In this document: piece by piece, positions 13 to 25,159 of the stretch
Position numbering within the stretch: the stretch's first letter is position 1
Layout: each line of letters begins with the position of its first letter
NCBI GenBank assembly: GCA_044892505.1
Contig: CM097882.1
Coordinates: 87,172,001-87,215,698 of the forward strand
Reading direction: 5' to 3'
DNA from: Schmidtea nova
Taxonomy: Eukaryota
Length of the DNA: 43,698 nt
Made by a program: the position numbers and the translations under genes
The notes under the pieces: generated by a model
The model's database searches: none
The model's input: the letters and a program-made list of their open reading frames with translations, nothing else
Told to the model about the DNA's origin: nothing

Positions 13-1183
13 TTACACCTCCGTTTCCTCTGGTTCATGGAACCCTTCGTCTTGGAGTTCCATTGGTGGTGGTGGTATAAATGGTAACCACACCACTCTG
101 CTTCTCCACATTGTAATTTCGTCTTGATACGTTCGAGAGATTTGTATCTCCTCATCTAACAGATACTCCATATAGTCTGATTGTTCGCTCAGAGTTTCAA
201 TTTGTCTTTCCATCTCTTCCACTTTTCTCTTCAGGGCTTCTACTTCTGTTGGTTCGGTTTCTACTTCTATGGTTTCTTTCTCTGCTTTCAGGGTTATTAT
301 CTGCTGTTTCAGTTCCTCGTTTTCTTTCGTCAAATTCGTTATGTTCTCCTCGTAAGCTCGGTTTGATTCCGCATGTCTTTCCTTCACAGCTTTCAGTTCC
401 ATTTTTTTTTGGGTCACCACCCCTTGATAACCATTTACATCTCTTTCCAGGCTTTCTTTTTCCCTGATCAACTTTTGTCTTTCCGCTTCCTCTTTTTGTC
501 TAATGCCTCGTATTTCCCCATTTATCATCTGTTTGCCATTGCGTTTTCTTTAGTTCCTTTGCCTGTTCTCGAATAAATCGCTGTCGTTTTCGACTCCATT
601 CTTTGTTTGTCTGTTCTTGTCGCTTTCTCTGTTCCAATTCTTCTTTCAATTCGTCTATCTCTTGATACAATTTCCAATCTTCGCTGTGTGCTGTCCTTCT
701 GATTATCTCTTTGGCTTCTCTATATACTCGTTTCGACTCCATCTTCCAATGTCTCGCTTGAGCCTTGATTGCTAGTATTTTTACCTCCATCTTTTCCTCT
801 TGTTTCTCCCTCTCTTCTCTTCGCATTTTCATCATGTTTTTGTAATGTTCTGCTTGTTTTCTCATCAACTGATAGGTCTCTTCTATCTTCTGTCGACTTC
901 GTGAGTTCGTTCCTTTTAGCTTCTCTATTTGTGCTGTCAGTTGTACTATCTCTTTATTCACTTCCTCGAGTTCTAGTTGATATAACTCCATTCGTCTCTC
1001 GCATTTTAGTTTATCGTAAAAATTGTTTGTCATCACTTCGTGTAATTCTCTGGTTCTTTGTTCTACTTCCACTTTACATCTCTTTTCGATTTCTCTTTCG
1101 ATTTCTCCTTCTATTGCTTCTTGTTCGTTTGACATCTCGTTTCTCGTTTCCTCTTCGATTACATGTCCATTTGCGTTTTCCAT
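13..1183 (-). CDS. Coiled-coil accessory protein of about 390 aa, split by a probable 1-nt frameshift into ORFs 500..1183 and 13..528; ends in ETEV
   Basis: E/K/Q/R-rich heptads in both ORFs, 29-nt overlap. Deleting one G of the GGGG run (516-519) gives continuous ...DDKWEIRGIRQKEE... The stop follows GAA ACG GAG GTG (ETEV). Confidence 0.7.
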
Positions 1184-1272: not shown

Positions 1273-2685
1273 CTACTCTAACCATCCTTTCGTTGACTTT
1301 GTGTTCATCACTGTTGTACTTGTTTTCTTTTCGATCTCCAACTCTACGTATAGGTTGTCCTCGTACAACATTTCCCACATTTTTTGGTGTGGTATGAATT
1401 TTGGTTCTCCCGTTGCTAATGAACATTCTGTGGTTGGTCTTTTGTAAGCCTCGTGCTTCCCATCGACTTTGAATATTCTCACAATCGTTTCTCTCGAGTT
1501 TTTCACTCTCATTATCGCCTTTGTCTCTAGTGGCCATTCCAATATGTCGTCGTAACCACCTTTACACAACGCAAAGAATAGTGACACATGCGTTTCCTTT
1601 CCTGATCCATCTCCATTTGGATAAATTCTCATCCGAACTTTGTATCCATTTTTCCACAGATAGAATGGTGGACTTGTTACCGACACTTGACTTCCTGCTT
1701 TTGCTGCTGCGAACTTTTCGTTGAAGTTCTTGATTTTCCATACATATGGTGCAACAGGTAAACTCTCGATATCCTCTGCATCTCGCACCCATATTTGATG
1801 TCGTACATTTACCTCCTTTACTAGCGTCTCTATGACTTTGATTTTCTCCATCATTTTTTCTCTGGTGAGCTCGAATTGCTCTCTCGTTTCCAGTAATAAC
1901 TCCGTCATTATCTTCTGAGATTCAATTTCTTTTCCCATTTTCTGTATGGTTTGTTCCATTCCGTTCAAATTTGCTGTTAACATCTCGGCGTGTTGTACCG
2001 TTTCCGTTTCCAAATGCTCTTTCATCTCTTTGCTCGTTTTCTTTACTACACATCCTTGTTTACTCCATACGCACTTTCTTGGTCTTGATTCGCATTGTTC
2101 CCAATGTTCTCTCAACATCACTTCTTCTCCGGTTCCGCAATTACTTGGACAAATTCCTCTGAATTTTCCACACACTTTCTCTTCTGCTACGTTGAGATGT
2201 TCTGTTTCGATTACTTCTCTCGTCTCTCTTTGTTCGCAGTATTGACACTCTATTATCTCTGCTTTGCACTCGTCCTTGTGATTTTTCGACTGCTTGATGG
2301 TTATCGTCTGTTGGCACTTTTCACATATCGCTTTCTTGTTTTCGCATTTCTCCAGATGTTGTCTTAACTCGATTATTTGTCCTTTCCATTCACATGGTTG
2401 GTTTATACACTCTGTTTTTATCTTCCAGATCTCCTTTTGTATTGCTTTGTCGGGTTTTGTCTCGTTGATCAGTAGTTTATCGTCACACTCTGGGCACTTT
2501 CTTGTCTCACTTTCACTGATTATTTGCAATATACACTTGGTGCACATCCTGCATCCACATTCCGTTTGCCTGGGTTTTAACAGTAGATTTTTACACTTTA
2601 CACACGTCACATTTACTCCCCATTGTCGATTTTCTCTTCTTAGAATCTCGATCGTTTGGTAATCTGCTTCGCTTTCTGCTCTCAT
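1273..2685 (-). CDS. TRAF: TNF receptor-associated factor (TRAF) homolog, 470 aa, intronless: RING, TRAF zinc fingers, coiled coil, MATH/TRAF-C
   Basis: RING CVKC..KPRQTECGCRMCTKC..CPEC; zinc fingers CINQPCEWKG..HLEKC and CVWSKQGC..HLE; MATH VWKIKNF..SPPFYLWKNGYKVRMRIYPNGDGSGKETHVSLFFALCKGGYDDILEWP. Confidence 0.95.
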   Translation of the reverse strand: MRAESEADYQTIEILRRENRQWGVNVTCVKCKNLLLKPRQTECGCRMCTKCILQIISESETRKCPECDDKLLINETKPDKAIQKEIWKIKTECINQPCEWKGQIIELRQHLEKCENKKAICEKCQQTITIKQSKNHKDECKAEIIECQYCEQRETREVIETEHLNVAEEKVCGKFRGICPSNCGTGEEVMLREHWEQCESRPRKCVWSKQGCVVKKTSKEMKEHLETETVQHAEMLTANLNGMEQTIQKMGKEIESQKIMTELLLETREQFELTREKMMEKIKVIETLVKEVNVRHQIWVRDAEDIESLPVAPYVWKIKNFNEKFAAAKAGSQVSVTSPPFYLWKNGYKVRMRIYPNGDGSGKETHVSLFFALCKGGYDDILEWPLETKAIMRVKNSRETIVRIFKVDGKHEAYKRPTTECSLATGEPKFIPHQKMWEMLYEDNLYVELEIEKKTSTTVMNTKSTKGWLE

Positions 2686-2775
2686 TCTACAACAATATTT
2701 ACATCAATTTCCCCATATTTTTGATTTTTTCTGGTTCTTTATTTACACGTATTTACACAATTTTCCGCTTATTCA

Positions 2776-3126
2776 TTATACATCCTCAGTTGAATCTGGC
2801 TCTGGATACACGTCTATCTCATTTACAATCCAGCTCGTCCAACTATCTGGTATCTCTTCCTCTTCATGTCTCGTTAATCGGTCAATTTCCTCTGCTTGCC
2901 AATTGTTTACTTCATTTAATGTTCGATTCTCGTTCTGTAATTCGTTTATCTGTATTTGTTGGATCTCGATTTTGTTCATTGCTTCGAAATTACAGTTATA
3001 ACTCTCGGTTAATAATTGCGTTTTGGCCGTCAACTGGCTCTGTAATTCGTTTATTGTTCTGGCTAGCAGGTCACATTGCACTTTCCATCTTGTCATCATT
3101 GACATCTCTGTGGTTTCTTGATTCAT
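2776..3126 (-). CDS. Small coiled-coil accessory protein (116 aa) with an acidic Trp-containing tail
   Basis: ATG ORF with heptads (LARTINELQSQLTAK; IQINELQNENRTL) and the element's codon bias; tail SWTSWIVNEIDVYPEPDSTEDV. Confidence 0.7.
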   Translation of the reverse strand: MNQETTEMSMMTRWKVQCDLLARTINELQSQLTAKTQLLTESYNCNFEAMNKIEIQQIQINELQNENRTLNEVNNWQAEEIDRLTRHEEEEIPDSWTSWIVNEIDVYPEPDSTEDV

Positions 3127-3708: not shown

Positions 3709-6700
3709 TTATAACTTTCTGATTCTCCTCGTTATCGTCGTGTTCCTTGGCGTGTAATAGGTTTCGCACCTTTCTTGTGGATTTCCTTGTGTATCCACTT
3801 CTTCAATTGCACACACTTCGTATTCTGCGTTTGTTTTCAACTTCCTCATTTCTACCTCGATTATTTCTCTTTTGTCATTTGATGTCTTTTGACAATTTCG
3901 TGGAGACTTTCCCTCCTTGTTTGGTATTAATTTCCAACAGATTTCTAGGACCTTTTTATGGATCTTCCATATTATCAGAGTTGATGACTCTGGTTCGTTT
4001 TCTATTGTCGTCCTTTCCGTTGTTGCCGGTTGAATTCTCTGACTGTTGGTTGTCGTGGTCCTTCTTGACTTTCTTTTCCTCTGTCGACTTCTTCCCATTT
4101 CGATCGTTCTTGTTCCGTTAATTTGCTCTGGCGTCTTGTATAGTTTACATTCCAAGCTTCTTTGTATTATTTCTCTTATTCTTCGGATTACGCAAATTTC
4201 ATATGCTTGTCCGACTTCGAATCCATTTAGTTGAAACGGAATTCCTCGTTCTCTCGTTCTGCATTGCGGTAGTACGTGACTGGTCGCTACTCCGATGTAT
4301 TTTCTCCAACACATCCCAATTGTTCTTCGACCAATGTTTTTTATCTCCACGGTTACTACTTCATTCTTAATCGTTTCTTGGTCTTGTTTCCTTCTTTTTG
4401 GGAACTCAATTATCTCCTTTGCTTGGAACACTTTACACTCGCTTGTTCCTGGTCTGTTTCCGTTTGCTGCTTTTTCCATGAGACATAGTTCACATGTTTT
4501 CTCTGTTTCTATTTCAGTTATCTCTATTTCTTCATTTGTCTCTGCTTCCCGACTTTCTCTTGTCTCGCTGATTCCAATTACTTCATTGTTTCGTCCCCAA
4601 CATCTTCCATTCGTTGTTCGTTGATCTTGGATGTTTACTAACGTCATCACGCTGATATCTATGTCCTCCATGATTCTCTTAATGAGGATTAATATTAATG
4701 CTACACATATCAATTCTGGTTGGAATGTTAATTTTCCCGCTGGATTTTTGGTTATTCTTTCTTTCTCTGTTCGGTTTCTGATTCCTTCTTCTGCTTCGGT
4801 TTGATTCTTCCCTTTCTCTGATTCCACTTCTGATCTTCTCGTTGTCTCTTCGCTTCTTTTTCCAATCCATTTCTGTATTTTCAGCGCTTCTGTTGCTTTA
4901 TATAATTGACATGCAGTTACTTGAGGTGCTTTTGGTTCTCCTCTCTGCTTTATTGCGCATATTATGTATGACTTTTCTTTCTCTAATCCTTTGATTTGGA
5001 TGACGTCTCGCTTCAAGTCTGACAATATACACTTCAGCGTATCGTTTTTCCTCAGGTTTTCCTTCCAGCATATTCTTTCGTATACTTCGTTTCCTCTGAT
5101 TATTTCCAGCGTGACGTATTGTTTCTTGGCTTCTCCTTGTCCGATGATTGTTATCAATATCGCGATACACAACATTTCTGGTCTCAAAAGTAGACTTCCT
5201 GTTCGTTTTCCATAGTTCGCATGTTCGTCTTTTGTTCCACTGTTTTCTCGTTCTTCTGCTTCTCCTTTCTTGTCGTTTCTCGTTGGCTTCGGTTCTTCTT
5301 GTCTTTCTTTTTCATTATCCTCCGTTCTTTTGTTGTCATTGTCTTCGTTGTTCTCTTCGTTGTTGCTTTTGTCGTCGAAATCTCTGTAACCACCCCCTGG
5401 TCCTTTGAAAATGTCGTCCTCGACATTGATTTCTTCAATCAATCTTTCATACGCTTGAACCGCGAGTGTGCTAGACTCGAATTCACGTATCTCCATATCC
5501 TTGGATGGTTCTATGTTTTCTAGTCTATTTTGCTTGATTGTTTCTTTGGCCTTTGCCCACTCATTCACATATTTTCTGAACAAGTCTTTCCATCTTCCCG
5601 TTCGTTCCTGTTCCTTTGGGTTGTTAGTAAATTTCAAATCTCTTCTCTTCAAGAATTCTTCAACTATCTCTGGCTTTTTGTGTCTTAGCAACGCGCTTCT
5701 GATACACCAATTCTGATTTTGTTCCATATGGTCATTGATCTTGAATGCCGGTTCCTTGGTGATCGGATTCACCCATGTTAGTAATGCTCTTGTTTTTTCT
5801 ACGTCGTGTATCATTACTGTCAGACTGAAATTCTTTACGTTATTTGCCAGGTATTCGATATCATCTTGTTTCTTGATGGACTTTATGAACTTGATCATCT
5901 CGAAGTTGTTCCACTGTATTGCGATATCTATGATGGAATTATTCTTTCCATTTTTCCCTTCGATTTTTGCTCCTGCTTCGTATAATTCACTTAGCACTTT
6001 AAAGTTCGTCTTCTTTCTTGCTGCGATTATCATGATTGTATCTCCGTTATCATCAACCATATTCATATCTGCTTCGCACTTGACCATCGCTTTCGTTATT
6101 TCCAGCACTTCGTTTTCTTTCTTTCGACGTAATGCCCAGTGTATCGGCAATCTCCCATCCTTTGATAATAGGAATGCCACTGGCATTTGATTCTTGATCG
6201 TTTCTATGTCACTCTCGTTATAATCCCCTTGTGCATATCTGTGCACTCTCTCTGTAATTGCTCCTAGTATTCCCAACGAGCTTTTATTCTCCTTGAATTT
6301 CGATAATTTTTCCTGCGCTTTTGCTACGATTGCGTCTAATCTCTCTTGATAATCGGCTTTTGCATTGAACAACACTGCCTTGCTTCTTATTCGTGTTTGC
6401 ATCTGTTTCATCCGTTGGTCTTGATACACTGCTTGTCTGAAGAATTGTCCATACTTCAATGCTTCCACCAGCTCTTTATATCTCTTGCTTATTTCTTTGT
6501 GCTGCTTTTGGATGTCATAGAAATGTTCGAAGCTCATATCCGGATTCCATTGTTTATCACACCATTTCTTGATTAATCCGAATAGTTCCTTCTTTCGGTC
6601 ATCCAACTTGTATTCTCTTGGGTTTTCGCTAACCCGTAGCGTATCTCTCGCTATCAACACTGCAAGTGTTTTTGGATCGTATGTTACCTCTAGTAGATGT

Positions 6701-9700
6701 TTCAGTAACGCATTTTCTCCCCTTGTGAATACTTCATTACAATTTACGACCCACGAATCTCCTTCTGGTCGTTTCCATTTTAGCAATATTCTCCAGGTTT
6801 TACTGTTCTTTACCCCGATTGCTTGTTTCATGATCGATCCTCTAGTTAGTTCATCGATTTCCCACGTGGCGTTTTCTGTGATATACTTAAGTAATCGGTG
6901 ATTTGCTCTATCGATTGCATGATTCAAGAATGTTCGTCCTTCTTTATCTTTTGCCATCCAACTCGATCTGGTGTTTCCGAATAGCTCGACTATTTCCTCA
7001 TCTCTTCCATGAATCGTCATCATCATAAGTGGAGTGATTCCTTCCCAATTCACTTTGTCAATTTCTCCTCCACCTTCGAGTATCATCTCTACGATCTCTT
7101 TCACTTTTTCGTTCCCACTGTGCTTGACTGCATTGTGCAACGCTGTGTTACCGTCTTTGTCTTGTAGATTCAATGTTTGAGGGATTTCCTCTAGCAGCGT
7201 TCTTGTTATTGGATGTGCTGTTCTATCCTTCGCATACTCCATTACATTCTTTCGAACTTCTGTCAATATATTGAAATCGAACCACCATTTCCATTCTGGT
7301 ATAATTTCTCTGGTCCTCTTTGCCAGTTCTTTGATGTCTATTGCTTCTCTTCGGTTGTCTTCTAGACTTGTTTGCGGCTTTTGTTGTACTCGCAACATAC
7401 TGATTCTCGCCGTCTGTGATCTTGTCATTACCCGTTTTTCTGGTAATCGAGTTGCTGTCTTTGGTACTTTTCTGCATCGACATGTATTCACGTATATTGG
7501 TCTTACCAATGGATTGTTCACCAATCGTACTCGCACATTATTTTCATTTACTGTTGTTATTTCATATGGCCCCTTGCCTGGTCGTTGGAGTTTCTTGACC
7601 GTACCGGGTATTATCTCTGGTGTCTCAATTATCACCCAATCTCCAACTTTTAAATCATGTGCTTTCACATTCTTTTTCTGGTCATGTAGATCCTTGTAAC
7701 TTTCTTGATAGAACTTGATGTTTAGTTCCGCCGTTTTCCAGATTTCCTGCATTCTTTCTTTGAACTTTGTAACGTAATCGTCAAAATCCATGTACTGCGA
7801 TAATGGTGGTTGATATTCTAAATCGATCGGTAAGTTGCAATCTCTTCCGTACATCAGTTGAAATGGACTTAGCTTTGTTGTCGCATGTATTGACATTCTG
7901 TATGCCATTAAACACAAGTTGATATACTCGTCCCAGTCAGTCTGATGTTTGCTGACGTAATTTGACAACATGCGTATCAATGTTCCATTGAATCTTTCTG
8001 TTTGTCCGTTCGTTTGTGGATGGTATGGGGATGTTCGTAATTTCGCAATTCGGAAGTAATTCGTGACTTCGTCTAATATTTCACTCATAAAATTTGTTCC
8101 TTGATCCGTTAGGATTTTCTTTGGTGTTCCGTATCTGCAGCATATTTCTTCCACCAATATTCTTGCGACTGTTTTCGCCTTTTGATCCGGTATTGCGAAT
8201 GCTTCTGGGAACTTTGTTAGATAGTCCGTGACTACTAATATGTACTGATTTCCTTTTAAACTTTCCGGCAATGGTCCAACTACATCCATTGCTATCGTCG
8301 CCATAGGTTCTGCAGGTATTGGCATTGGTTTTAGTGGTGTTTTCCACTTCGTTCCGACGTTCTTTCTTGTCGCACAGGTTAAGCAGTTCTTTATCCATTC
8401 CTTCACATCATCTTCCATGGTTGGCCAAAAGTACTTTTGTCTCAGTCTCCCGATTGTCTTTTTCGCTGACATATGTCCGCCTAATTTTCCGTCATGATAT
8501 TGAGTCATGATTTCCTTTCGTCTATTCGCAGGTAAGCACATTAATCTTCGTTCTCCATCTTGTATCAATAACCATCCTTTTTCCATCACATATCTATGTT
8601 GATATTTCTGCATATGTTCGCGCAACGTTTGGTTCTTGCCGAATATTTCTATTTCCCTTTCTTTCAAATACTTGCTGATCAATCCCAACTCCTCATCTTC
8701 GAGTTGATCTTTCCTTAGTTCGCTGAAATCCAAATCTTCCGCTATTAATGCACATATTTTTAGAGCATTCAGGTTCACCAATTCTGGGAATGTAAATCTT
8801 GACATGCAATCCGCGTTTGCATTTGCTTTTCCTGCTTTAAACTTTATGAATGGCGAGTATTCCTGCAACTGCATCGCCCAACGCATCAATCTACTTGATG
8901 ATTCTTTGTGTTGACCTAACCATACCAATGGTTGATGATCCGTCGTGATATATATTTCATGACCCCACAATAGGTATTTGAAATGCTTGATTGCCAATAT
9001 TATCGCATAGGCTTCTCTTTCCGTGACTGAGTAATTCCTTTCATGTTTCCTGAATGTTCGACTGTAATATCCGATCACTCTCTCTTTGCCTTCTTCATCG
9101 AATTGGCCTAGTACTGCTCCTGCTGCGTATCCACTTGCATCTGTTGCCAACAGAAATGGCTTCTTGAAATCTGGATGGACCAATATTGGTGCTGTAATCA
9201 GCTTGTCTCGCAATGTCTCGAATGCTGCTTGTTGCTCTTCTCCCCATACAAACGACATATCTTGTCTTACCAATTCTTGCATTGGCTTTGATATTCCTGC
9301 ATAGTCCTTGATAAACTTTCGATAATATCCACACAATCCCAAAAATTTTTGTATTTGAGTCACTGTCTTTGGTGGTGGACATTCTTTGACTTTTTCGATA
9401 TTCCTTGGATCTGGTTCTTTTCCTTTTGCTGATACAATGTGACCTAAAAATGTCACTTTCTCTTTTGCCCAATCGCACTTTGACGGCTTTAATTTCAGTT
9501 TCCATTGCCTCAATTTCACGAACACATTTCTGATATCTTGTAAGTGGTCTTCAAATGTTGCGGAGTAGATCAATAGATCGTCGATGTACACCATGCATTG
9601 TTTTATGCCATGTGTTACGAAATTCATGCATCTCTGGAATGATGCTGGCGCGTTTGTTAACCCAAACGGCATTTTCTTGAATTGGTACAGATCTCGTCCG

Positions 9701-10875
9701 ATTGTAAATGCTGTCTTTTCTTTATCCTCGTCCTTCATTTTGATCTGCCAATATCCGCTTTTTAAATCCAGTGACGTGAAATAAGCTGCTCCTTGTAAAG
9801 TCAACAACATTTCGTTTATGTCTGGCAGTGGGTACGTGTCTCTTTTCGTAACTGCGTTCAACCGTCTGTAATCGATACAGAATCTCTGAGTTCCATCCTT
9901 CTTTTTCACCATCACCACTGGGAATTGCCAGGGTGAGCAACTAGGTTCGATGACCTCCGCATCTAACATCTTTTGTACCTCTTCTTCTGCCACTGCTTTT
10001 TGAGCTTCTGCCAATTTATATGGTCTTAATGCGATTGGCGTCTCGTCCGTCAATGGTATCGTATGTAATGTTACATCACATGTTCCCAAATCCAAATCTG
10101 ATGCTGCGAATATATCTTGATACTCCATCAACAGTTTCTGTAACTGTTCTTTTTGTTGTTCGTCTAACAACACACTGTCGATTTTCCATGGTAATTCGTC
10201 TTTGCTTTTCTCATTCTTGCCTGGTATTTCGATTTCGGACATGGGTGTCAATTTGCCCAATCTCTCATTCTCGTAAATTATCTTGTCCTCTTCGTCAAAA
10301 TTCACCAGATTAATTGGTATCTCACCTTCTTGGTTTATCGTAACCAATTCTCTTGCCATTGGTAATTCCTTCTTCGCTTCGAACTTCTTACTTGGTTCGA
10401 ATATCATATCTCCCTTTATTGTTGAATCGATCTTGACATAACACATCATTTCATGTCTCGCTGGCACTACTATTTGTTCCGCACTTGCCACTTTAACTTT
10501 CATTCTGCAGATTTTTCCTGTCCTATCTTTTAGCTTCATTGCTCCTAGATCAATTACGATTTCCTTGAACAGGTCTGGCATTAGGTCAGTTCCAATAATA
10601 CATGGTACACTCAGCGATGGTATTACAGCGATGTACGTGTTGATTTCTGCACCTCGATGCTTAATTTTTACAAACCATCTTCCGGCTACTTCTACTGTCT
10701 CCTGACTGCACGCGATTACATGTACATTCGTCTTCTCGATTTCCCCTTGGTTTTTCTCTGGTATATAATTAATGTCGATCGCCGAAATATTCGCGCCTGT
10801 ATCGATCTTAGCTTCAATTTCTCTTCCGTTTATTTCTACGGTTGTTGTTAAGATTGGTCCCATGTTTGTGGACAT
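3709..10875 (-). CDS. pol: Pol polyprotein, 2388 aa: aspartic protease, dUTPase-like linker, RT, RNase H, integrase (HHCC, DDE, GPY/F), then ankyrin and FN3-like extensions
   Basis: AKIDTGANIS (PR); LDLKSGYWQI, MPFGLTNAP, YIDDLLI (RT); LATDAS, EREAYAII, TDHQPL, NANADCMSR (RH); YHDGKLGGH..CLTC, AMDVVGP, TDQG, NGQTERFN, GKGPYEI (IN). Confidence 0.98.
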   Translation of the reverse strand: MSTNMGPILTTTVEINGREIEAKIDTGANISAIDINYIPEKNQGEIEKTNVHVIACSQETVEVAGRWFVKIKHRGAEINTYIAVIPSLSVPCIIGTDLMPDLFKEIVIDLGAMKLKDRTGKICRMKVKVASAEQIVVPARHEMMCYVKIDSTIKGDMIFEPSKKFEAKKELPMARELVTINQEGEIPINLVNFDEEDKIIYENERLGKLTPMSEIEIPGKNEKSKDELPWKIDSVLLDEQQKEQLQKLLMEYQDIFAASDLDLGTCDVTLHTIPLTDETPIALRPYKLAEAQKAVAEEEVQKMLDAEVIEPSCSPWQFPVVMVKKKDGTQRFCIDYRRLNAVTKRDTYPLPDINEMLLTLQGAAYFTSLDLKSGYWQIKMKDEDKEKTAFTIGRDLYQFKKMPFGLTNAPASFQRCMNFVTHGIKQCMVYIDDLLIYSATFEDHLQDIRNVFVKLRQWKLKLKPSKCDWAKEKVTFLGHIVSAKGKEPDPRNIEKVKECPPPKTVTQIQKFLGLCGYYRKFIKDYAGISKPMQELVRQDMSFVWGEEQQAAFETLRDKLITAPILVHPDFKKPFLLATDASGYAAGAVLGQFDEEGKERVIGYYSRTFRKHERNYSVTEREAYAIILAIKHFKYLLWGHEIYITTDHQPLVWLGQHKESSSRLMRWAMQLQEYSPFIKFKAGKANANADCMSRFTFPELVNLNALKICALIAEDLDFSELRKDQLEDEELGLISKYLKEREIEIFGKNQTLREHMQKYQHRYVMEKGWLLIQDGERRLMCLPANRRKEIMTQYHDGKLGGHMSAKKTIGRLRQKYFWPTMEDDVKEWIKNCLTCATRKNVGTKWKTPLKPMPIPAEPMATIAMDVVGPLPESLKGNQYILVVTDYLTKFPEAFAIPDQKAKTVARILVEEICCRYGTPKKILTDQGTNFMSEILDEVTNYFRIAKLRTSPYHPQTNGQTERFNGTLIRMLSNYVSKHQTDWDEYINLCLMAYRMSIHATTKLSPFQLMYGRDCNLPIDLEYQPPLSQYMDFDDYVTKFKERMQEIWKTAELNIKFYQESYKDLHDQKKNVKAHDLKVGDWVIIETPEIIPGTVKKLQRPGKGPYEITTVNENNVRVRLVNNPLVRPIYVNTCRCRKVPKTATRLPEKRVMTRSQTARISMLRVQQKPQTSLEDNRREAIDIKELAKRTREIIPEWKWWFDFNILTEVRKNVMEYAKDRTAHPITRTLLEEIPQTLNLQDKDGNTALHNAVKHSGNEKVKEIVEMILEGGGEIDKVNWEGITPLMMMTIHGRDEEIVELFGNTRSSWMAKDKEGRTFLNHAIDRANHRLLKYITENATWEIDELTRGSIMKQAIGVKNSKTWRILLKWKRPEGDSWVVNCNEVFTRGENALLKHLLEVTYDPKTLAVLIARDTLRVSENPREYKLDDRKKELFGLIKKWCDKQWNPDMSFEHFYDIQKQHKEISKRYKELVEALKYGQFFRQAVYQDQRMKQMQTRIRSKAVLFNAKADYQERLDAIVAKAQEKLSKFKENKSSLGILGAITERVHRYAQGDYNESDIETIKNQMPVAFLLSKDGRLPIHWALRRKKENEVLEITKAMVKCEADMNMVDDNGDTIMIIAARKKTNFKVLSELYEAGAKIEGKNGKNNSIIDIAIQWNNFEMIKFIKSIKKQDDIEYLANNVKNFSLTVMIHDVEKTRALLTWVNPITKEPAFKINDHMEQNQNWCIRSALLRHKKPEIVEEFLKRRDLKFTNNPKEQERTGRWKDLFRKYVNEWAKAKETIKQNRLENIEPSKDMEIREFESSTLAVQAYERLIEEINVEDDIFKGPGGGYRDFDDKSNNEENNEDNDNKRTEDNEKERQEEPKPTRNDKKGEAEERENSGTKDEHANYGKRTGSLLLRPEMLCIAILITIIGQGEAKKQYVTLEIIRGNEVYERICWKENLRKNDTLKCILSDLKRDVIQIKGLEKEKSYIICAIKQRGEPKAPQVTACQLYKATEALKIQKWIGKRSEETTRRSEVESEKGKNQTEAEEGIRNRTEKERITKNPAGKLTFQPELICVALILILIKRIMEDIDISVMTLVNIQDQRTTNGRCWGRNNEVIGISETRESREAETNEEIEITEIETEKTCELCLMEKAANGNRPGTSECKVFQAKEIIEFPKRRKQDQETIKNEVVTVEIKNIGRRTIGMCWRKYIGVATSHVLPQCRTRERGIPFQLNGFEVGQAYEICVIRRIREIIQRSLECKLYKTPEQINGTRTIEMGRSRQRKRKSRRTTTTNSQRIQPATTERTTIENEPESSTLIIWKIHKKVLEICWKLIPNKEGKSPRNCQKTSNDKREIIEVEMRKLKTNAEYEVCAIEEVDTQGNPQERCETYYTPRNTTITRRIRKL
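3738..5075 (-). other. Four Cys-containing FN3-like repeats in the pol-frame C-terminus
   Basis: Repeating CW..(L/F)xxxxxY/CxxC..CxxY/FxT pattern: GLEKEKSYIICAI..CQLYKAT; EIETEKTCELCL..CKVFQAK; GFEVGQAYEICVI..CKLYKTP; KLKTNAEYEVCAI..CETYYTP. Signal-like segments precede repeats 1 and 2 (PEMLCIAILITIIGQGEA; PELICVALILILI). Confidence 0.65.
5870..7165 (-). other. Two ankyrin-repeat clusters (about 6890-7165 and 5870-6165) in the pol-frame C-terminus
   Basis: DKDGNTALHNAV, NWEGITPLMMM, DKEGRTFLNHAI; SKDGRLPIHWAL, DDNGDTIMIIAA, NGKNNSIIDIAI. Confidence 0.9.
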
Positions 10876-10914: not shown

Positions 10915-13900
10915 TTAACCTCGTTTTACTTTGCATCCTTCTGGAATTATCGGGTATATACTTGTCATCGGCATCATCTGCATCATATTCGGCTTCGCTT
11001 TGTATATCGGTTCGTTATACATTGATTGGGGTGGAGCACTGTATCTCCAATTCTCAACTGCACTCTTTTCGGTATACTGTGGAATCTGGTTTATATTCGC
11101 TTGTCCTCCTTGATCGTCATCGTCGTCATCATCATTGCTTGAGTCATCTTGTGTTCGATATCCCTTCACTCTTTCCCATAATCCTTTCCTTTCTTTCTTG
11201 AGTTGTCGTCTTGCTTGCTCGTCTTGCATTATCTTTTTGAATTTCCTTCCGACATCTTCATTTGTTCCTTTCATTTTAGCAAGTATCTTCAACAATCTTT
11301 TTATTCGATGTATGTTTTTTGAGTGTCCGTGCAACACCATTGTTTTCGCAAGGAATGGTAAAAACCCTACTACCATTTTCCAATTCACTTTCTTCTCTCT
11401 CTTGTAGATATCGAAGCACGCTAACATTTGCGTTATTATCACTCTGACAATTTGTATTATCAATATCACTCCCAGTATTCCAGCCATCATTTGTCCGAAT
11501 ATCAGGAATCTTCCCCACATTGCTTTCATCATATTTTCTGTGGCTTTCTTGAAATGTGCTGGTGACAATAACAGTTCATAATTCGGTCCTTCTCGATAAT
11601 CCGTTCCTCCCGTTATCGTTACGATATTTGACAGTAATGCTTCTCTTCTTGCCGGGAATAATATATTCTGTCTCGCCGCTTCCAAATCTTTTGGGCTATA
11701 TATTCCGTTGTTTGAGACATCTACGTCGCTGAACTGTCTATCCTTTGACAACTGCATCAGTTCAAATTCTCTTGGTGCTAATACTTCGGTTCTTCCTGGG
11801 AACATTACCCATTTGCCATCTGGTTTCTGATAAAGCGGTCCGTATGCGTTACTACAGTTGAATGGATTTGGTTCGAATCCTGGTGGATTGATGATTCTCG
11901 TCACCGGTTGAACGTATCGTACTTTTCCTTTGTAATCGATTTCTAGTTCGTTTGTACAAGTTCCTGGTTTCAACTGCGTTGTTGCTGCTAGCGATGCATG
12001 TGTCTTTTCGCAAATGTATACGTACATTGCTTCTCCGACCACTCTTCCGAAATGTCCTTCTCTCAGTGGTAATAACGGCATCGCGCTATCTGGATTCGTA
12101 ATCGCTACGGCCAACTTTGTCTTTAATATTTCTCGATTCAGTATACAATCGTTGTTTATCAGATCATAGTACACTTTTTGCAATGAGGCTTGTCCTCTAT
12201 GGAATAAGAAATCCATTTTATTATTCACATACAAGTGTAGCTTGATATCCATTGTGTCGATCTTGGGTTTCGCATTCGGCACTTCTTGCTTTGACACGTA
12301 TATTCCTGGATAGTTTGTTTCGTATACCGTTGTACTGCACTTAAGGGTTGCTTTCCCTTTTATGAATCTCATGCCCACATCCTGATTTGTGGTTATCAAC
12401 ACTGTTGGTGTGGTTCTCATTTCTATCCGTTTCTCTCTATGATCCGGTTTCAATTGTCTTTTATTCTCTAAAGCTTCTTTGAGATGCTTTGCTCTAGCTT
12501 TGTCATCATCGTCCTCTTCTTGGAATGTTTTTCCTTGAATTTCGTCGAACTTTGCTCCTTGTAGCAGTTGTAATTGACATTCGTTCACCTTTGGTTTATA
12601 CACCAATGTTGACATTCCCGTTTGACACATGCTCCTGTCAATTTTACACATGGATAACGTTTTCATTTCTCCCGTTGTTGGTTCGAAGAATGCTTCGTAG
12701 CTTTTCAGTTCGACTATATACGTATCCATCACCACCAAGTTGGTTGCAAGTACTCCGAATATCGGGTAGGTTTCTCCTTGACAATACCCTTCTCCTCCCG
12801 TAATCCGTCCTGCTACATAGTACGTCTGCTGTAACATCATTCCTGGTTTTCCTTTTATCTTGATTTTATCCCTTGTTGTTACTTCTCCATGTTTGAACAA
12901 TGCTTCGCAGTCTTCTCCTTGCAACACGATTGGTTCTCTTTCCGTTCCTGGCATGACAATTGCTGAATAATGCCCTCTCCCACAATAGAATGCGAATCTC
13001 GTCTTCTGCACCTTGCATTCATTCACCATTGTCTTTATTAGTTCTGCTTCTTGATACACGTGGTACCATTGTTCCTTTTTAATCTCTCTCAACTCTACTG
13101 GAGATGCATCTTTGCATTGCTCCGTACCTCTCAATGAATACTTTTCTCCCAATTTCATTTGATCACAATCAAATACTTCGAACGTTGTTACACCTTCTGT
13201 GCTTAACAACCATACTAACATCATCATGATTATCGAGTTTAAATTCAACGTCGATCTTCCATTTCCTTGCATCGTTTGTCTATTCTCCATTTCTCTCAAT
13301 ACTCCTTCGAGTTTCTTTCTCATCACGTTAGACCCTTCTTTTGTCTGGTTCTCTTTTATGAACTTTTCCCATCCTCCTTTCCTGAGGATATATGGTTCAA
13401 TTTCTTTCTCGATAATCATCGCCGTATTTTTAATATGTCTTCCCATCGGACTTGACTTCGGACTTCCTCGGCTTAGCGTTAACAAATTGTATATCGTATA
13501 CGAGATTGCTACCAGATATTTGCTGTCCATTTCTGCTCCGTTGAGTAGCCTTTTTATTAACCTCGTGGTTCCTTGCCAATCTAGATGATTCGATTTTGTT
13601 TTTGCTTTGATTAATTCTGGCATAATCGGTGCTATCGCATTGTGTAGCATCTTTGCCTTTGTACTAGGTTCGTTTATCCGCCACAAATTCTTTAATTCCG
13701 GGTCGATTATCGCTAGTACATCCATTATCGTTTTGGTGAGCCATTCTTCTCCTTGACAAACTTGATTCTCCTCTTTGCCTCTGATCTCTGCGATTTTATC
13801 CAATTTCTTCAAGCAAATCTCCCATTGCTCTTGTCTCCTTTCTTCCCTTGTCTTTGGAATTGCTGTTGTTGGGTCTATCTTTGGTCTTCCTCTTGGTCGT

Positions 13901-14001
13901 TTTTCCATTCCAGTTCCGGTTTCTACAAATCTCGTTGCTCTTCCCGTTTCTTCCGTAACATCTCTTCCTTCGTTTGCTCGTTGTTCTAACCATCTTTTCA
14001 T
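10915..14001 (-). CDS. env: AT-hook plus Bcl-2-like domain fused to a chuvirus-G-like class III envelope glycoprotein (1028 aa)
   Basis: Env motifs FEVFDC..C, FYCG, DCILNREILKTKLAVA, GHFGRVVGEAMYVYIC, CTNELEI..QPVTRII, CSNAYGPLY..W, GIYSPKDL..ILFP, TM WGRFLIFGQMMAGILGVILIIQIV. N-terminal KRPRGRPK; BH2-like YILRKGGWEKF. Confidence 0.85.
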   Translation of the reverse strand: MKRWLEQRANEGRDVTEETGRATRFVETGTGMEKRPRGRPKIDPTTAIPKTREERRQEQWEICLKKLDKIAEIRGKEENQVCQGEEWLTKTIMDVLAIIDPELKNLWRINEPSTKAKMLHNAIAPIMPELIKAKTKSNHLDWQGTTRLIKRLLNGAEMDSKYLVAISYTIYNLLTLSRGSPKSSPMGRHIKNTAMIIEKEIEPYILRKGGWEKFIKENQTKEGSNVMRKKLEGVLREMENRQTMQGNGRSTLNLNSIIMMMLVWLLSTEGVTTFEVFDCDQMKLGEKYSLRGTEQCKDASPVELREIKKEQWYHVYQEAELIKTMVNECKVQKTRFAFYCGRGHYSAIVMPGTEREPIVLQGEDCEALFKHGEVTTRDKIKIKGKPGMMLQQTYYVAGRITGGEGYCQGETYPIFGVLATNLVVMDTYIVELKSYEAFFEPTTGEMKTLSMCKIDRSMCQTGMSTLVYKPKVNECQLQLLQGAKFDEIQGKTFQEEDDDDKARAKHLKEALENKRQLKPDHREKRIEMRTTPTVLITTNQDVGMRFIKGKATLKCSTTVYETNYPGIYVSKQEVPNAKPKIDTMDIKLHLYVNNKMDFLFHRGQASLQKVYYDLINNDCILNREILKTKLAVAITNPDSAMPLLPLREGHFGRVVGEAMYVYICEKTHASLAATTQLKPGTCTNELEIDYKGKVRYVQPVTRIINPPGFEPNPFNCSNAYGPLYQKPDGKWVMFPGRTEVLAPREFELMQLSKDRQFSDVDVSNNGIYSPKDLEAARQNILFPARREALLSNIVTITGGTDYREGPNYELLLSPAHFKKATENMMKAMWGRFLIFGQMMAGILGVILIIQIVRVIITQMLACFDIYKREKKVNWKMVVGFLPFLAKTMVLHGHSKNIHRIKRLLKILAKMKGTNEDVGRKFKKIMQDEQARRQLKKERKGLWERVKGYRTQDDSSNDDDDDDDQGGQANINQIPQYTEKSAVENWRYSAPPQSMYNEPIYKAKPNMMQMMPMTSIYPIIPEGCKVKRG
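13360..13800 (-). other. Bcl-2-like domain
   Basis: EPYILRKGGWEKF matches the BH2 pattern; MDSKYLVAISYTIYNL lies about 50 aa upstream and aligns to the BH1/alpha5 pattern (NWGRIVALFYF) with NWGR degenerate; helical composition; C-terminal hydrophobic segment. Confidence 0.65.
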
Positions 14002-14235: not shown

Positions 14236-16474
14236 CTATCTCGTTTTGATTGGTGTTGTCCTTGCTTGTCCCGAACTTGTTCCTGGGATCATTGCTGACT
14301 TCATCGGACTTGGTGTACTCATGCTTCCTTTCGGTTTCTTTTCCTCTTTAAACTTCAGTGGTTGACCCACTATCTGTGCCACTGTTAGCGTATTCATTAG
14401 ATCCAATTGCACTGGTGTCAGCCAGATTTCCAACTTGTTATCCAACGATCGTCCTTGATGTTGCAGGTGGAATGGTAGTTCGTACATCAGTTTCTCTTTA
14501 ACACTTTTCACTTTTTCTGTTAGCATCACCCAAAACTCTTCTTTTCTCTGATTTGGATACATTATCCTCAAATGTATTTTCTGTGGCGTTTCCTCCGCAA
14601 ATTCTTTGTTTCTCCACTTTTTTATTACATTGTCTAGTTGCTCTGGACACCACTCATTAACTCTCTTGTATTCTGCTATCGCTTTAGCTGCTTTTCTCAA
14701 GTTCGTCATGTCTTCTCCATTTGCGATTATAAAATCTGCTAAGCCTTTTATTGTTTGTCTTTTTCCCCGAGTATTTCCTCTCAACAGTTCTATTAATTCA
14801 TCCGTTTTCTGTTTCTCCAATTCTGCCCATATTACTGCAGTTTCTGGTCCGTCTAAGTCCGTTGGTAATAACCTCCTTGTTACCATACATATCCGTTTCG
14901 TATTCGATTCATATCTGTCTTCTCCTTCTGGATCTTCTTCATACACGCCTCTTTTCACTTTCCAACATTTCTCTTTGTTATCCCATTGCTTCTCTACTGG
15001 CGTCAATCGTCGTCTGTTAAGATCCAATTCTCCCAATATTGTCTCCCATTCTGGCTTCATCTGCCAGTTCCGATAGATTTCTACTATCTGCCTCAACTTG
15101 CGCATAACGTCCTCTTGTCGTTTCTTTCTCCTTTCTTCATCTCTTGGTGTTGCTCTTGGCACATCATCCATTCTGATGACGTGTATTGTCTGGGAATTGT
15201 CCCATATGCCGATTTTATACGCTCGTCTTTCGTCACGTTCATTCAGTAGATGTTCTTTGTATTTTATCGCAATGTCATCCTCGAATTCATCTTCCCGTTC
15301 TCGTTGTAATATCGTCTCATTGATGACATCTACTATTTCTCCCACTTTACTATCTGGTATTACCTCAATTTGTCTTGTCTCTTCGTTCGGTAATCTCACA
15401 GTAATCATCAGATCTGATACCTCTCCTCGTCTAAACATTTCTTTTCCCATCTTTGCGATTAGCTTGTCCGTTTTGAAATTTGAATGTCTCGTTTGACTTG
15501 TATCTCGTATGTTCTCGATACACTGTTTCAAATTCTCATACTCGCTTTTTGTCAATTCCTTTCGATGTTTCTTGATTTGTTGGATGATCTGTTCTATCAT
15601 CGTATTCAAATTCTCTGCCAAGATTCGTTCCTTTGCCTCTATCAACTGAGGTTTTATTCTCATCTCATAACACGTATTCGCTTCTTTGACGATTCCTTGT
15701 AAGTTCTCTTCCTTCTTGGTGTTGCATATTGATAACGTTGTTATTTCTCCTGGCCATATGCCTGTGTCTATCATATGCGTTCCTTTTTTCACTAATCCGT
15801 TTTCCGAATATATGAACTTGTCTTTGTACGAGCTTCCCAATCTGTCCTCAACCCATCTGTAGATTCCATCTGTCATTGGGTTCTTTATCCAGATTCTCGG
15901 TGAACACTCGTTTATCCATATCTGTATTATGTATTCGTTGAGTGGTTCTTTCAATAACTTCTCTATGAACTCTTGTATTACTCTCACTTCTCTTTCTTGT
16001 AACCACTCTTTATACTTCATCTGCCATATTGCTCGTATGAACTTTCGGTATCGTTTCTTGTCGATAAACTCCTCGTTATGGATTACTTCCAACACGTTAT
16101 CCATCAGCTTCTGAATTTCGTCTTCCTTTACCGACATCGTTTCTATCGTCTCGACTACTTCCATCTTTTTATCCTCGTTTTCCGGTTCCTTTAGCATGTC
16201 TCCTGCCAGACTGCTAACTTCGCTGTCGTCTTCTTCATCTGACAACTCTTGTCTTGGGTGTCTCAGCATCCCAATATGCGCGGTTGGTCTCACTTCGTTT
16301 TTGCTAACTTCCTGCGTTAGTTCATTCTCGTTTCCCGTTATTTCAGCTTTTCCCATTCTTTTCTCCAACTCATCTATTTCTTCAAACCGTCTTCGTCTTA
16401 TTTTCCCTTTAAATATCCGACTGATCCGAGTTTGATGTTTCACTGGTGGTGGGAGTTTCTCCGGTTCCACCTCT
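14236..16474 (-). CDS. ORF2 (gag extension) with two ubiquitin-like domains, about 15170-15410 and 14380-14580
   Basis: MITVRLPNEETRQIEVIPDSKVGEIVDVI and IHLRIMYPNQRKEEFWVMLTEKVKSVKEKL..LQHQGRSLDN resemble the ubiquitin beta-grasp pattern ([35 protein letters not shown]). Joins the gag frame if the 14-nt duplication at 16461-16488 is removed. Confidence 0.65.
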
Positions 16475-18729
16475 CCGGTTCCACCTCTCTGATGATCATC
16501 ACGTTCATTTTCGTCTCCGTTACTCCCATATCTTCCCATATATCAGTCATCTTCAACTTTACTTCCGGTAAATCCTCTGTTTGTAGGAATGCTTCTCTGG
16601 GTAGTTTCGTCACTCCCGGCATCATCTCATTTACTTTATTGAACAATCTTCCCACTTCTTCTTTTACATTGTATTTGAATCGCCACACGTGATCATTCAG
16701 CATGATCACCAACATTCCTCTTTGTTTGATTCTCACTTCTTCTTCTTGATTCACTTCTTTTTCTGTTTCTTTTTCTATTTCTGTTTCTTTTTCTACTTCT
16801 TCAACTTTTTGATTCTGCTCTGCGGTTTCTACTTCCTGATTCATTTCTTCTTGTTTCTGCTCTTCGTTTCTTTTCTCTTTAACTTCTAACTCGTCTGACT
16901 CATCTTGCTGCTTCTCTTCCATCATTGCTCGCATCATGTTGATCCTTGGGTTTCCCTTTTTTAACAGTTGTAATCGTTGTTGCCTGACTTGTTCTTCTTC
17001 TCGTCGTACTCTGGCCCATTCTTGATTATGTTTCTGTTGGCTTTCTCTATTTTCTCTTTCAGCCTCAGCTTCTATTAACTGGATCATGTTTATCTTTGGT
17101 TGAGCAGCTTGCTGGCTTCCCTTTGCCATGCTTTCGATTATCTCGTGTAATCTGGATACCTCCTGTCTCAACTTGGCCTCTTTCATACTGGCTTCGTTTG
17201 CACTGCTATTTGGGTTGTTCCGTTGTTGACCCTGATTCCCATAACTTGATCGATTTCCGTAATTCTGTCTATTTCCACTGTTTGACCAACTTCTCTGTTG
17301 ATTACACTCTCTTGACATGTGTCCCGTTTTCCCACATGTGTAACACATTTTCCCGTAACATCGATTCTCTGAGTGACCTTTTTGTCCACACAGTTTACAG
17401 GCTACATTCTGAAAACACTCTTGTTGCCAATGTCCGTTTTTCCCACACGTCTGACATTGCCTATTCTGCCTGTCATTGTAACTATTTCCTCCACTCGTGT
17501 TCACTGTGATATATCCATTATTTTTCCTCGCTGGCGGTTCTTTGAACAATCTCTGCGAATGGGGAATACTTTGATTCATGTTTCTTTTTCCTTGTTCTTC
17601 ATCTTCTGTCGTTTTTCCCATTACCGCCGTAATTCTCATGTCGTTCATTGCCATATGCAATTCGAATAGGTTGGCTGCTTCTAACGCTTCATCTACTGTT
17701 TTACATCCTTTGCATCCCACTTGTGCTCTGATGTCAGGTCTCCTGAGACCTCGTACGAATAACGCTGTCATCAATTCTTCGTCTACTGGGCTTCCTCTAT
17801 TGAATGCCAGTTTCGCCAACTTTCTTAATTCGCTTGCGTATACCGCATTTGACTCATTTCTCCTCTGTTTTCTTGCTGAGAACTCATCGAACGCTTCTTT
17901 CAACACTTTATTTATCCCAAACGTCTGTTGGAAGAACTCCTTGATTGCTTCCCACGTTCTGGGTGGATTACTTCCCGATCTCTTTTCAATATACAGATCC
18001 AATGCGCTATCTTTCAAGTATAGCGGGATTCGATTTGCCAACGTTTCTGCACTTTATCCGCATATATCCACGAATATGCCAAATTCCTTTAGAAACGTGT
18101 CCAATCTACTGGCGTCTCCATCGAATGGTTCGCCCTTGAATTTTTCTCTCAGATCCTCTCTGTGTTCACTCATCCCGATTCCACTGTCTTGGAATACTGT
18201 ACTAGTTTTCTTTGCTTCTATTTCACCACTTGTTTCTGGATTCAACTCTTCTTCTTCAATACTCTCTGTTTCGTTATCTCTTGATTCGCTTCTTGTTCTG
18301 TTTTCACTAACTAGTTCACAGTCTATCGTTTCTACTTCGTTTCGTACTTCTGGATCCTCTGGGGTTTCTTCTTGGTTCTCTTTATTACTCGAATTATCGC
18401 TGATCTCTGCTGGTTTGTTCTTCAGTTGCGCTGCTTTATTTCTTGGCCTTGTCTTCTTCGCTGTTTTTCTTTCTTCTTCTGTTAGGATTGGTATTATACC
18501 TGTCCTTGTTTTGCGTTCCGCAATCTTGTCTATTACTCAACTTCTTATATTCTCAACTGATTTTCTACTTCGCTTTTGCTTTGCTTCTTCTTCGATTTGT
18601 TTCCTTTGACTGCTCTGACTGCTAGATTGCCTGGAATTGCTTGATTGATTTGTTTCCTTAAAACAAATAATCACTTACACGATACGTCCCCGTTATCGTG
18701 TTTCTCGTCCCTCTCACGGGTGTAGTCAT
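16440..18729 (-). pseudogene. gag: gag (capsid plus three CCHC knuckles), disrupted in this copy by TGA 18537-18539, TAA 18054-18056 and a 14-nt duplication
   Basis: GEPFDGDASRLDTFLKEF..ICG*SAE..IPLYLKDSALDLY..TWEAIKEFFQQTF..RKQRRNES..YASELRKLA; CQTCGKNGHWQQEC, CKLCGQKGHSENRC, CYTCGKTGHMSREC. The frame is continuous across both stops up to 18656. Confidence 0.9.
18657..18678 (-). promoter_or_regulatory. Consensus splice donor GTAAGT (18678) and in-frame acceptor (18657): putative 22-nt intron or major splice donor
   Basis: Minus strand ATG(18729)-MTTPVRGTRNTITGTYR|GTAAGTGATTATTTGTTTTAAG|GAA ACA (ETNQ..) joins in phase 0 with gag. Confidence 0.5.
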
Positions 18730-20979: not shown

Positions 20980-21438
20980 TTACAAGTACACTGTTACTTT
21001 CTCGGATACGGGAAAATTGCACATAGGACATCGTTCATTTATTTTACAGTCATTACAGAATCGAAAATGCCCACACGGCAGCAACATTATCTGTATCTTA
21101 TTTATTTCACAGATGTAACACGTCAGATACTGTCTCGTATATTCGGTTGTCGTTCTTATCCACTCATCGTGTTTTGTTGCAATCTGTCGTTCTAGCCTGT
21201 GGCATTCGATATTCATTTCAGGGTTGTTTAATCTTTCTCTGTACCATTTGTATCTCGTTGCTGTATCAACTGTATTCTTATTCTCGCTTATGCTCATCAT
21301 CATTTCGGCTCTTTCTGTGTTGTTTGTCGGTTCGTGATATCTTCCTACCTCGAGTCGTTTTAACTTTCTCATTATTATCTCCATTGTCTCGTTGTTTGTT
21401 TCAAAAAACGTTTGCATTTCTTTTATTTTGTTCTCCAT
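20980..21438 (-). CDS. C-terminal IAP/Mdm2-type C3HC4 RING protein (152 aa, no BIR); putative E3 ligase
   Basis: CYICEINKIQIMLLPCGHFRFCNDCKINERCPMCNFPVSEKVTVYL at the extreme C-terminus; same A-rich codon bias as the element. Confidence 0.85.
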   Translation of the reverse strand: MENKIKEMQTFFETNNETMEIIMRKLKRLEVGRYHEPTNNTERAEMMMSISENKNTVDTATRYKWYRERLNNPEMNIECHRLERQIATKHDEWIRTTTEYTRQYLTCYICEINKIQIMLLPCGHFRFCNDCKINERCPMCNFPVSEKVTVYL

Positions 21439-22370
21439 CCCCTGAATGAATTACCATTAATTTCTGTCGATTTTTATTTATTATCTATTATTTTTATTCT
21501 GTGGTAGCCCTACTGTTCGCTTTCTGTTGTTCTGTTTCGCGTCACTACTTGCGTATCCCCCCGTGTTCTTGAATGTCGCCCCGACATGATCATTGTTAGT
21601 TGCTCACACTCATACCATTTTCATACACACTTTTCAGCATACTTTTACTTTACGTCATGCATATTTTTCATCACTTTTCATACTGTTATTCCACATACTA
21701 TTCATCATACTTCATTCATCCTCATATTTTCACATTCGTACTTTCATTCCCATGCATACTTTTATCATGCTCATCAATCTCATTATTTTACACTCATACT
21801 TTTATTTATTATTTTTCAACCCGATTCATTCTTGCTTCAGGACCCACAAACCCTCTGTTATCATTTACTTTACTTTTCCTCGCTAAATTCAATTTCATCC
21901 CGGTTCAGGCGCTCTAACACTGTCCGCAGATATCGAATTCACTTTTCCCACAAAAATCGATTTAATCCCGGCTGAGCCCCCAAATTTATGCTGGTGTGTT
22001 GGTTTGATGGACAACTGAGATCATTAAGATTTTATATGTTAGGGTGATCTCGCCAACATAAAAACATTCCCCCGCTGACACCCATGATGTATCCCTAACT
22101 ACTCATCATGTTGGTGCTGTGTCAACGTTGTGAAATGACAAGGCAGGTGAGCAACCTTGCGGCTACTATTCCCTTGTTTATTCACGGGTCCACCACTACC
22201 GATAGAAGGTGTTTGTGGATTTCTTTCGGTCCCACTTATGCTCTTTCCTTTTGTCCTAGGGTGATTTAATTTTTAGCGCATCTGCAGCTTTAAATGAACC
22301 AGGTTTTCCTTATGTTTAATTCTCATACATACTTCAAACACCCAAGACAAGTCATTCATCCAATATACAT

Positions 22371-22934: not shown

Positions 22935-23164
22935 GTCTGGGAAATGTATCATTAATTAGGGTATGCATGATTTGTTTGGTTTCTTAGTCACCATTTTATT
23001 GTCAAACAACTACACTCTATCCTCACTCATTCACATGCATTCAAAAACCAAAACAAAACCCTTTTGAATGGATACATATATTTTAATTTACAACAGATGT
23101 TCTTTCTTTGGAGAGGTCACTCTCGCGATCAATTGTATGGTCGTAACTTCTGATCGGCAGGGTT

Positions 23165-25119: not shown

Positions 25120-25159
25120 ATGCTGCTCGATTTGGCTGGCCCAACAAGAATATATAAAA

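What the first reader, a model, noticed from the sequence alone, without database searches (positions are those of the whole stretch)
1273..2685. Full-length intronless TRAF captured by a retroelement, with a His->Cys RING variant
The RING-ZnF-coiled coil-MATH architecture is complete, intronless and has the element's A-rich codon bias, suggesting old retrocapture of a host mRNA kept under selection. The RING reads CGC where TRAFs have CGH (seen). It could act as an active or dominant-negative TNFR/TLR adaptor (inference).
Basis: partly seen in the sequence, partly recalled or inferred. Interest (0 to 1): 0.8.

Follow-up and report, generated by a model that had tools for sequence, protein, structure and literature searches.

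The report
Giant retrotransposon carries host TRAF gene
A giant retrotransposon carries a complete cell-signalling adaptor gene (TRAF) in over a hundred copies under purifying selection; it was likely taken long ago from the flatworm host and likely helps keep element-producing cells alive, while its 'odd' RING and lack of introns are ordinary features of most of the host's own full-length TRAFs.

Summary
Observation confirmed: a 470-aa RING–zinc-finger–coiled-coil–MATH TRAF lies on the minus strand inside a 29.1-kb Burro-type Ty3/gypsy element (LTRs 99.5% identical, env-like gene between gag and pol). At least 116 copies exist; variants shared among copies give dN/dS about 0.12, with 0 amino-acid versus 18 silent changes in the RING. 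Codon bias matches the element.

Interpretation partly wrong: 18 of 20 host TRAF RINGs also carry Cys at the His site, and eight host TRAFs are also encoded in one open frame. Neither trait is element-specific or shows mRNA capture. Trees place the element TRAFs inside the triclad TRAF clade (99/99), probably from one old capture.

MATH_TRAF, BIR and ankyrin domains in Burro elements are already published. Not found in my searches: full-length TRAFs in three families; one family placing TRAF next to a BIR–RING IAP while lacking RT; splice-acceptor-like motifs before accessory ORFs. The RING lacks TRAF6's Ubc13-docking residues and the receptor groove is altered, so a scaffold working with IAP ligases to favour cell survival is the likeliest role (inferred). 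No expression or binding data.

The parts
1273..2685 (-). Full-length TRAF accessory ORF, 470 aa (family A)
2485..2604 (-). RING (res 28-67), eight Cys; Cys45 at the His site; Lys30/Lys32 at TRAF6 Ile72/Leu74
   Evidence: 0 nonsynonymous vs 18 synonymous variants shared by 4+ copies over res 20-90
2002..2415 (-). TRAF zinc fingers (about res 91-228), with an insert shared with triclad host TRAFs
1768..2001 (-). Coiled coil (TRAF-N, res 229-306)
   Evidence: predicted helix
1333..1746 (-). MATH/TRAF-C; Arg353/Tyr355 kept, serine triad replaced by His-Glu-Ala, Cys469 position is Glu427
2687..2700 (-). T-rich tract plus TAG one base before the ATG: likely splice acceptor
   Evidence: kept in 45 of 47 distinct family-A copies
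21988..25146 (-). 5' LTR (TG...CA), holds two ORFs of 199 and 193 aa; the 3' LTR lies 0.8-4.0 kb left of the window; 4-bp target duplication TTCT
20980..21438 (-). 152-aa ORF with a cIAP/XIAP-type C-terminal RING, no BIR
   Evidence: cIAP2 RING E 7.5e-7
16440..18536 (-). gag with CCHC knuckles, interrupted by a stop
14236..16539 (-). Polyprotein segment between gag and env (767 aa)
10915..14001 (-). env-like Monjiviricetes fusion glycoprotein segment
   Evidence: PF24664 E 5e-73
3709..10875 (-). PR-RT-RNaseH-IN followed by ankyrin repeats
2776..3126 (-). 116-aa accessory ORF, shared-variant dN/dS 0.09
13..1183 (-). Coiled-coil accessory ORFs (227 and 171 aa; their homologue is one ORF in family B)

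Best explanation
This is a selected accessory gene of a Burro-type giant retrotransposon, likely captured once from the planarian TRAF family, likely expressed from a spliced RNA, and likely acting as a scaffold that does not dock the E2 enzyme itself but works with IAP-type ubiquitin ligases to tilt stress and immune signalling towards survival of the cell that is copying the element. Shown: position inside the element, copy number, purifying selection, placement in the triclad TRAF clade, and residue changes at the E2 and receptor sites. Inferred: splicing, trimerisation, IAP partnership and the pro-survival outcome.
For: Selection: variants shared by 4+ copies 49N/141S (0.12) versus private 183N/123S (0.50), p 8e-14; family B 0.15; family E 0.20; +1-frame control 1.78. 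Origin: triclad clade 99/99, element clade 94/96. Lys30/Lys32 sit at TRAF6 I72/L74, where I72D/L74R abolishes Ubc13 binding (PMC5702613 passages); 18 of 20 host RINGs keep a hydrophobic residue at I72. All four families read carry an IAP-type RING near the 5' LTR, and family E places a BIR-RING IAP directly after its TRAF. Host TRAF knock-down raises cell death in S. mediterranea (PMC7586133). Acceptor-like motif before 14 of 19 accessory starts; shuffled mean 2.1, max 7 in 5,000.
Against: No RNA or protein evidence. The window's own IAP-type ORF has no BIR, the domain that binds TRAF2 in mammals (recalled). Family E's TRAF keeps Val at the I72 position, and Lys also occurs in two triclad host-clade TRAFs and 4 of 87 CGH TRAFs, so the residue argument is weak alone. 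The TRAF6 RING-dimer residue F118 is Lys here and is also not kept in most host TRAFs. The element clade is just under the starred threshold and may be inflated by shared composition. BURRO1 RNAi did not rescue smedwi-2 animals (PMC8532177 passages), so no host-level effect of any Burro gene is shown.
Confidence: 0.5

Rival explanations
1. Dominant-negative decoy: the element TRAF joins host TRAF oligomers or receptor complexes and blocks TAK1/p38 or TBK1 signalling because it docks neither E2 nor the usual receptor motif.
For: Serine triad replaced and Cys469 position acidic in families A and B; Lys at I72; hundreds of gene copies; a planarian traf2-1 acts as an inhibitor (PMC4993586 passage).
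Against: A decoy need not keep an invariant RING, yet RING shared variants are 0N/18S. Host triclad TRAFs also deviate at the triad. TRAFs that do not bind E2 can still support chain building in heterodimers (PMC5702613).
Confidence: 0.25
2. Autonomous E3 ligase: the all-Cys RING recruits a planarian E2 and ubiquitinates host restriction or death factors directly.
For: All eight ligands kept in 55 of 57 family-A copies that cover the motif, 26 of 26 B, 22 of 22 E; the E2 surface varies among TRAFs; family E keeps Val at I72.
Against: Lys/Lys at I72/L74 and Asp after the last Cys in the window protein.
Confidence: 0.12
3. The protein serves the element's own particle assembly or trafficking, not signalling.
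For: Family D carries a MATH domain inside the gag-env-pol polyprotein, where it would be packaged.
Against: In A, B and E it is a separate ORF with full signalling architecture; one recently inserted family-E copy lacks TRAF and IAP.
Confidence: 0.08
4. A host gene outside the element, or a neutral passenger.
For: 21 of 61 copies examined are damaged.
Against: Between two LTRs, syntenic in 19 of 19 other loci, shared-variant dN/dS 0.12, kept in three families at 36-53% identity.
Confidence: 0.02

Closest known systems
Burro / GYPSM1 giant Ty3/gypsy LTR retrotransposons of Dugesiidae (as reviewed in PMC6431247)
   Same: About 30 kb, env between gag and protease, ankyrin repeats after integrase, MATH_TRAF_C and IAP-derived domains; family D here has MATH inside the polyprotein as Burro1 does.
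   Different: The review describes a MATH domain in ORF1, or in an upstream accessory ORF in D. tigrina. Here a complete RING-ZnF-CC-MATH gene sits downstream of pol. Whether the original Burro paper shows this could not be checked.
Triclad host TRAFs (Dendrocoelum TRAF-2/-4/-5 in UniRef; G000 loci L137, L141-L143, L156, L169)
   Same: CGC RING, zinc-finger insert, single-frame coding sequence, same clade (99/99).
   Different: 29-36% identity; A-rich codons; Lys at the I72 site in families A and B; short deletion and changed groove in MATH.
Vertebrate TRAF2/3/5
   Same: Domain order, fold, R393/Y395 and F410/F447 positions kept.
   Different: His replaced by Cys; S453-S455 and C469 not kept; mobile and multicopy.
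Virus-captured apoptosis regulators such as baculovirus IAPs (recalled)
   Same: Host cell-death genes carried and kept by a selfish replicon.
   Different: Here the captured gene is a TRAF adaptor in an LTR element; I know of no full-length viral TRAF (recalled; search listed none).

Membership tests
TRAF family | C-terminal coiled coil plus MATH domain | tested here: met
TRAF family | N-terminal RING and TRAF zinc fingers | tested here: met
   Pfam scores below cut-off but PDB hits to TRAF6 RING-ZnF E 7e-13
TRAF family | Trimerisation | not tested
   no complex model obtained
TRAF1/2/3/5 receptor-binding type | Hot spot 3 (R393, Y395) | tested here: met
   Arg353, Tyr355
TRAF1/2/3/5 receptor-binding type | Serine triad S453-S455 and C469 | tested here: not met
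   His411-Glu412-Ala413; Glu427
TRAF6-type Ubc13 ligase | Hydrophobic I72/L74 E2 surface | tested here: not met
   Lys30/Lys32
Triclad CGC TRAF clade | Phylogenetic placement, CGC, zinc-finger insert | tested here: met
Burro elements | About 30 kb with multi-kb LTRs | tested here: met
   29.1 kb, 3.16-kb LTRs
Burro elements | gag-env-PR-RT-RH-IN-ankyrin polyprotein | tested here: met
   order; interrupted in the window copy, one 5,685-codon frame in a family-B copy
Burro elements | BIR domain | tested here: not met
   family A has only the IAP-type RING; BIR present in family E
Burro elements | BCL2-like motif before env | tested here: inconclusive
   no Pfam or PDB hit; all-helical model, pLDDT 46
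Burro elements | Sequence identity to named Burro-1 to -4 | not testable with these tools
   reference sequences not available; Grohme 2018 not held
Processed (mRNA-derived) capture | Loss of introns present in the donor gene | tested here: inconclusive
   donor clade includes 8 genes without coding introns; no single donor resolved

The most novel reading that the evidence does not exclude
Planarian giant retroelements have rebuilt the TRAF-cIAP survival module from two captured host genes and express it from spliced subgenomic RNAs like a complex retrovirus; an RT-less satellite family keeps the TRAF-IAP pair under selection and so may pay its helper elements with cell survival.
Probability: 0.2. 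Interest if true: 0.82.

Novelty: new variant of a known kind. Interest (0 to 1): 0.5.

Why it matters
It makes an old suggestion testable: Burro elements were proposed to meddle with host apoptosis and ubiquitination (PMC6431247), but on domain lists alone. Here one gene has measured selection, a phylogenetic origin, a likely expression route and specific residue predictions. Because planarians pass insertions through adult stem cells, an element gene that prevents cell loss would be directly favoured (inference). Practically, several hundred element-borne TRAF copies can contaminate counts of the planarian TRAF expansion and RNAi designs, although the host also has its own large MATH cluster.

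Tried and rejected
Expression: no RNA holder listed; the two runs laid are contigs of unknown kind and say nothing on expression. Complex prediction of family-E TRAF with its IAP: no verdict. Word-index protein searches found only distant TRAFs and nothing for the family-E IAP. Small trees did not resolve origin (best 65/88); only wider sampling did. Rows dropped: four long or redundant rows; 30 of about 60 length-filtered CGH proteins used, a handful. A TRAF-less element first noted as a separate ancestral family is a deletion copy of family E. Deletions converging on window 1777-1796 were considered as splice products and rejected: three junctions show microhomology and no common donor, the fourth joins an unrelated repeat. 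BCL2-like fold: inconclusive. Grohme 2018 was not held and Jurka 2007 was not seen; their figures and supplements may already show full-length TRAF ORFs. Three look-ups of earlier findings returned nothing.

Full report
Observation. The ORF lies on the minus strand at 1273-2685 and encodes 470 aa. It has a RING (res 28-67), TRAF zinc fingers, a coiled coil and a MATH domain. The RING has Cys where TRAF2 and TRAF6 have His. A at fourfold sites is 0.59, against 0.54-0.60 for the element's gag, pol and env and 0.30-0.35 for four host TRAFs.

The element. Two 3,159-bp LTRs, 99.46% identical, with TG...CA ends and a 4-bp target duplication enclose 29.1 kb. The order is LTR, IAP-type RING ORF, gag, a 767-aa segment, an env-like fusion protein, PR-RT-RH-IN-ankyrin, small ORFs, TRAF, coiled-coil ORFs, LTR. 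The window copy's polyprotein is interrupted several times while its TRAF frame is open. This matches the Burro elements of planarians as described in PMC6431247 (passages read), which already lists MATH_TRAF_C, BIR, ankyrin, BCL2-like and env domains. The host is inferred to be a triclad from this and from the trees below.

Copies and selection. A 26-nt probe has 116 exact hits, control 0. Of the 90 best protein matches 83 have no stop (score-biased). Of 61 distinct copies read, 40 are undamaged: 35 of 41 high-scoring ones and 5 of 20 picked by eye because they were missing from the list. All 19 other loci checked match the element across 4.4 kb. Variants shared by four or more copies are 49 nonsynonymous to 141 synonymous (ratio 0.12); private variants are 183 to 123 (0.50); p 8e-14; the RING region shows 0 to 18. 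On 32 copies, TRAF (0.12) is as constrained as its neighbours (0.09-0.32) and a shifted-frame control gives 1.78. These are counts of distinct variants, not a codon model.

Sister families. Family B carries a 51-53% identical TRAF in the same slot (25 of 26 copies undamaged, ratio 0.15). Family E (91 of 91 scored matches) has a 36% identical TRAF followed at once by a BIR-RING IAP; shared-variant ratio 0.20 on 22 copies. Both family-E copies read upstream lack gag, env, RT and integrase. Family D has a MATH domain inside the polyprotein, as Burro1 does.

Host comparison. The genome holds many host TRAF genes, most clustered on contig C2. Eight run from RING to MATH in one open frame, and 18 of 20 host RINGs read have Cys at the His site; one has Asn, and only a multi-exon TRAF4-like gene has His. 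Among the 150 best library representatives 87 have His, 15 Cys and 48 no matched motif; 10 of the 15 fall in the triclad clade, including Dendrocoelum TRAF-2, -4 and -5. Trees put all element TRAFs inside the triclad clade (SH-aLRT 99; 99/99) and together in one group (94/96), which also holds two unnamed library proteins. No single donor gene is resolved, smaller trees were uninformative, and shared composition may inflate the element group.

Mechanism. Lys30 and Lys32 align with TRAF6 Ile72 and Leu74; mutating these abolishes Ubc13 binding, and TRAFs that do not bind E2 can still help in heterodimers (PMC5702613, passages). Eighteen of 20 host RINGs keep a hydrophobic residue at Ile72, but family E has Val and two host-clade TRAFs have Lys. 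In MATH, R393/Y395 and F410/F447 are kept while the serine triad and C469 are not (residues from PMC6125299, passages). The RING is therefore conserved but probably not a TRAF6-like catalyst, and the receptor groove probably binds something else. With IAP-type ligases in all four families and TRAF next to IAP in family E, a TRAF-IAP scaffold role is the most economical reading; the mammalian TRAF2-cIAP precedent is recalled. Host TRAF loss kills cells in S. mediterranea (PMC7586133, first of six parts and passages); planarian immune output runs through TAK1/p38 and TBK1 without a clear NF-kB (PMC4993586, PMC7958881, PMC13563047, passages). BURRO1 is transcribed after PIWI loss (PMC8532177, passages).

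Expression route. A T-rich tract and YAG lie within 8 nt of the ATG in 14 of 19 accessory ORF starts across families A, B and E (15 if the second ATG of the E TRAF is used), against 17 of 609 other ATGs and a shuffled mean of 2.1. The motif is kept in 45 of 47 A, 24 of 24 B and 19 of 20 E copies. The rule was set after seeing the sequences, and no RNA confirms it.

Novelty. TRAF/MATH in Burro is known. Searches (listings) and passages in PMC6109357, PMC11410931, PMC13524379 and PMC13238120 showed no description of full-length element TRAFs, their selection, the TRAF-IAP pair or the acceptors. The primary Burro paper and its supplements could not be read. Verdict: real, a new variant of a known kind; interest 0.5.

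Noticed in passing
L190 118-3658, L193, L194 (family E): Abundant element with TRAF directly followed by a BIR-RING IAP; 150 of 150 scored BIR matches are mostly this 399-aa ORF. Two copies read lack gag, env, RT and integrase; one has LTRs 99.98% identical, so it is likely mobilised in trans.
   Followed up: partly
L055-L065 versus host locus L029: The RING-zinc-finger half (about 670 bp) of a host TRAF sits in at least 10 dispersed copies, 93-98% identical, inside a shared unit of about 1.6 kb; looks like a separate, recent capture by a small non-LTR or DNA element.
   Followed up: partly
L123, L124, L130, L132 (breakpoints at window 1777-1796): Four copies lose everything upstream of the MATH domain at nearly the same spot; one fuses protease and the start of RT in frame to MATH, a possible route to the Burro1-type polyprotein MATH.
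   Followed up: partly
G000 contig C2, about 404-455 Mb (L147-L166, L177-L186): Large cluster of host TRAF genes, many with the RING and the MATH domain in two separate open frames (likely two exons): the host's own TRAF expansion.
   Followed up: partly
window 22371-22952 and 23165-23764 (minus): Two ORFs inside the LTR with no Pfam match; homologues occur in another LTR.
   Followed up: no
window 21965-21982 (minus): Primer-binding-site-like sequence shared with family B; resembles the 3' end of tRNA-Pro (recalled, not tested).
   Followed up: no
window 19046-19465 and 19760-20300: Tandem repeats of about 84-97 bp and about 35 bp in the 5' leader between the IAP-type ORF and gag.
   Followed up: no
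window 25150-27000: The element has inserted into a region with opposite AT skew, possibly another mobile element on the plus strand.
   Followed up: no
P0049, P0054, P0093, P0109, P0112: CGC RINGs in TRAFs outside the triclad clade: the His-to-Cys change has arisen more than once.
   Followed up: partly
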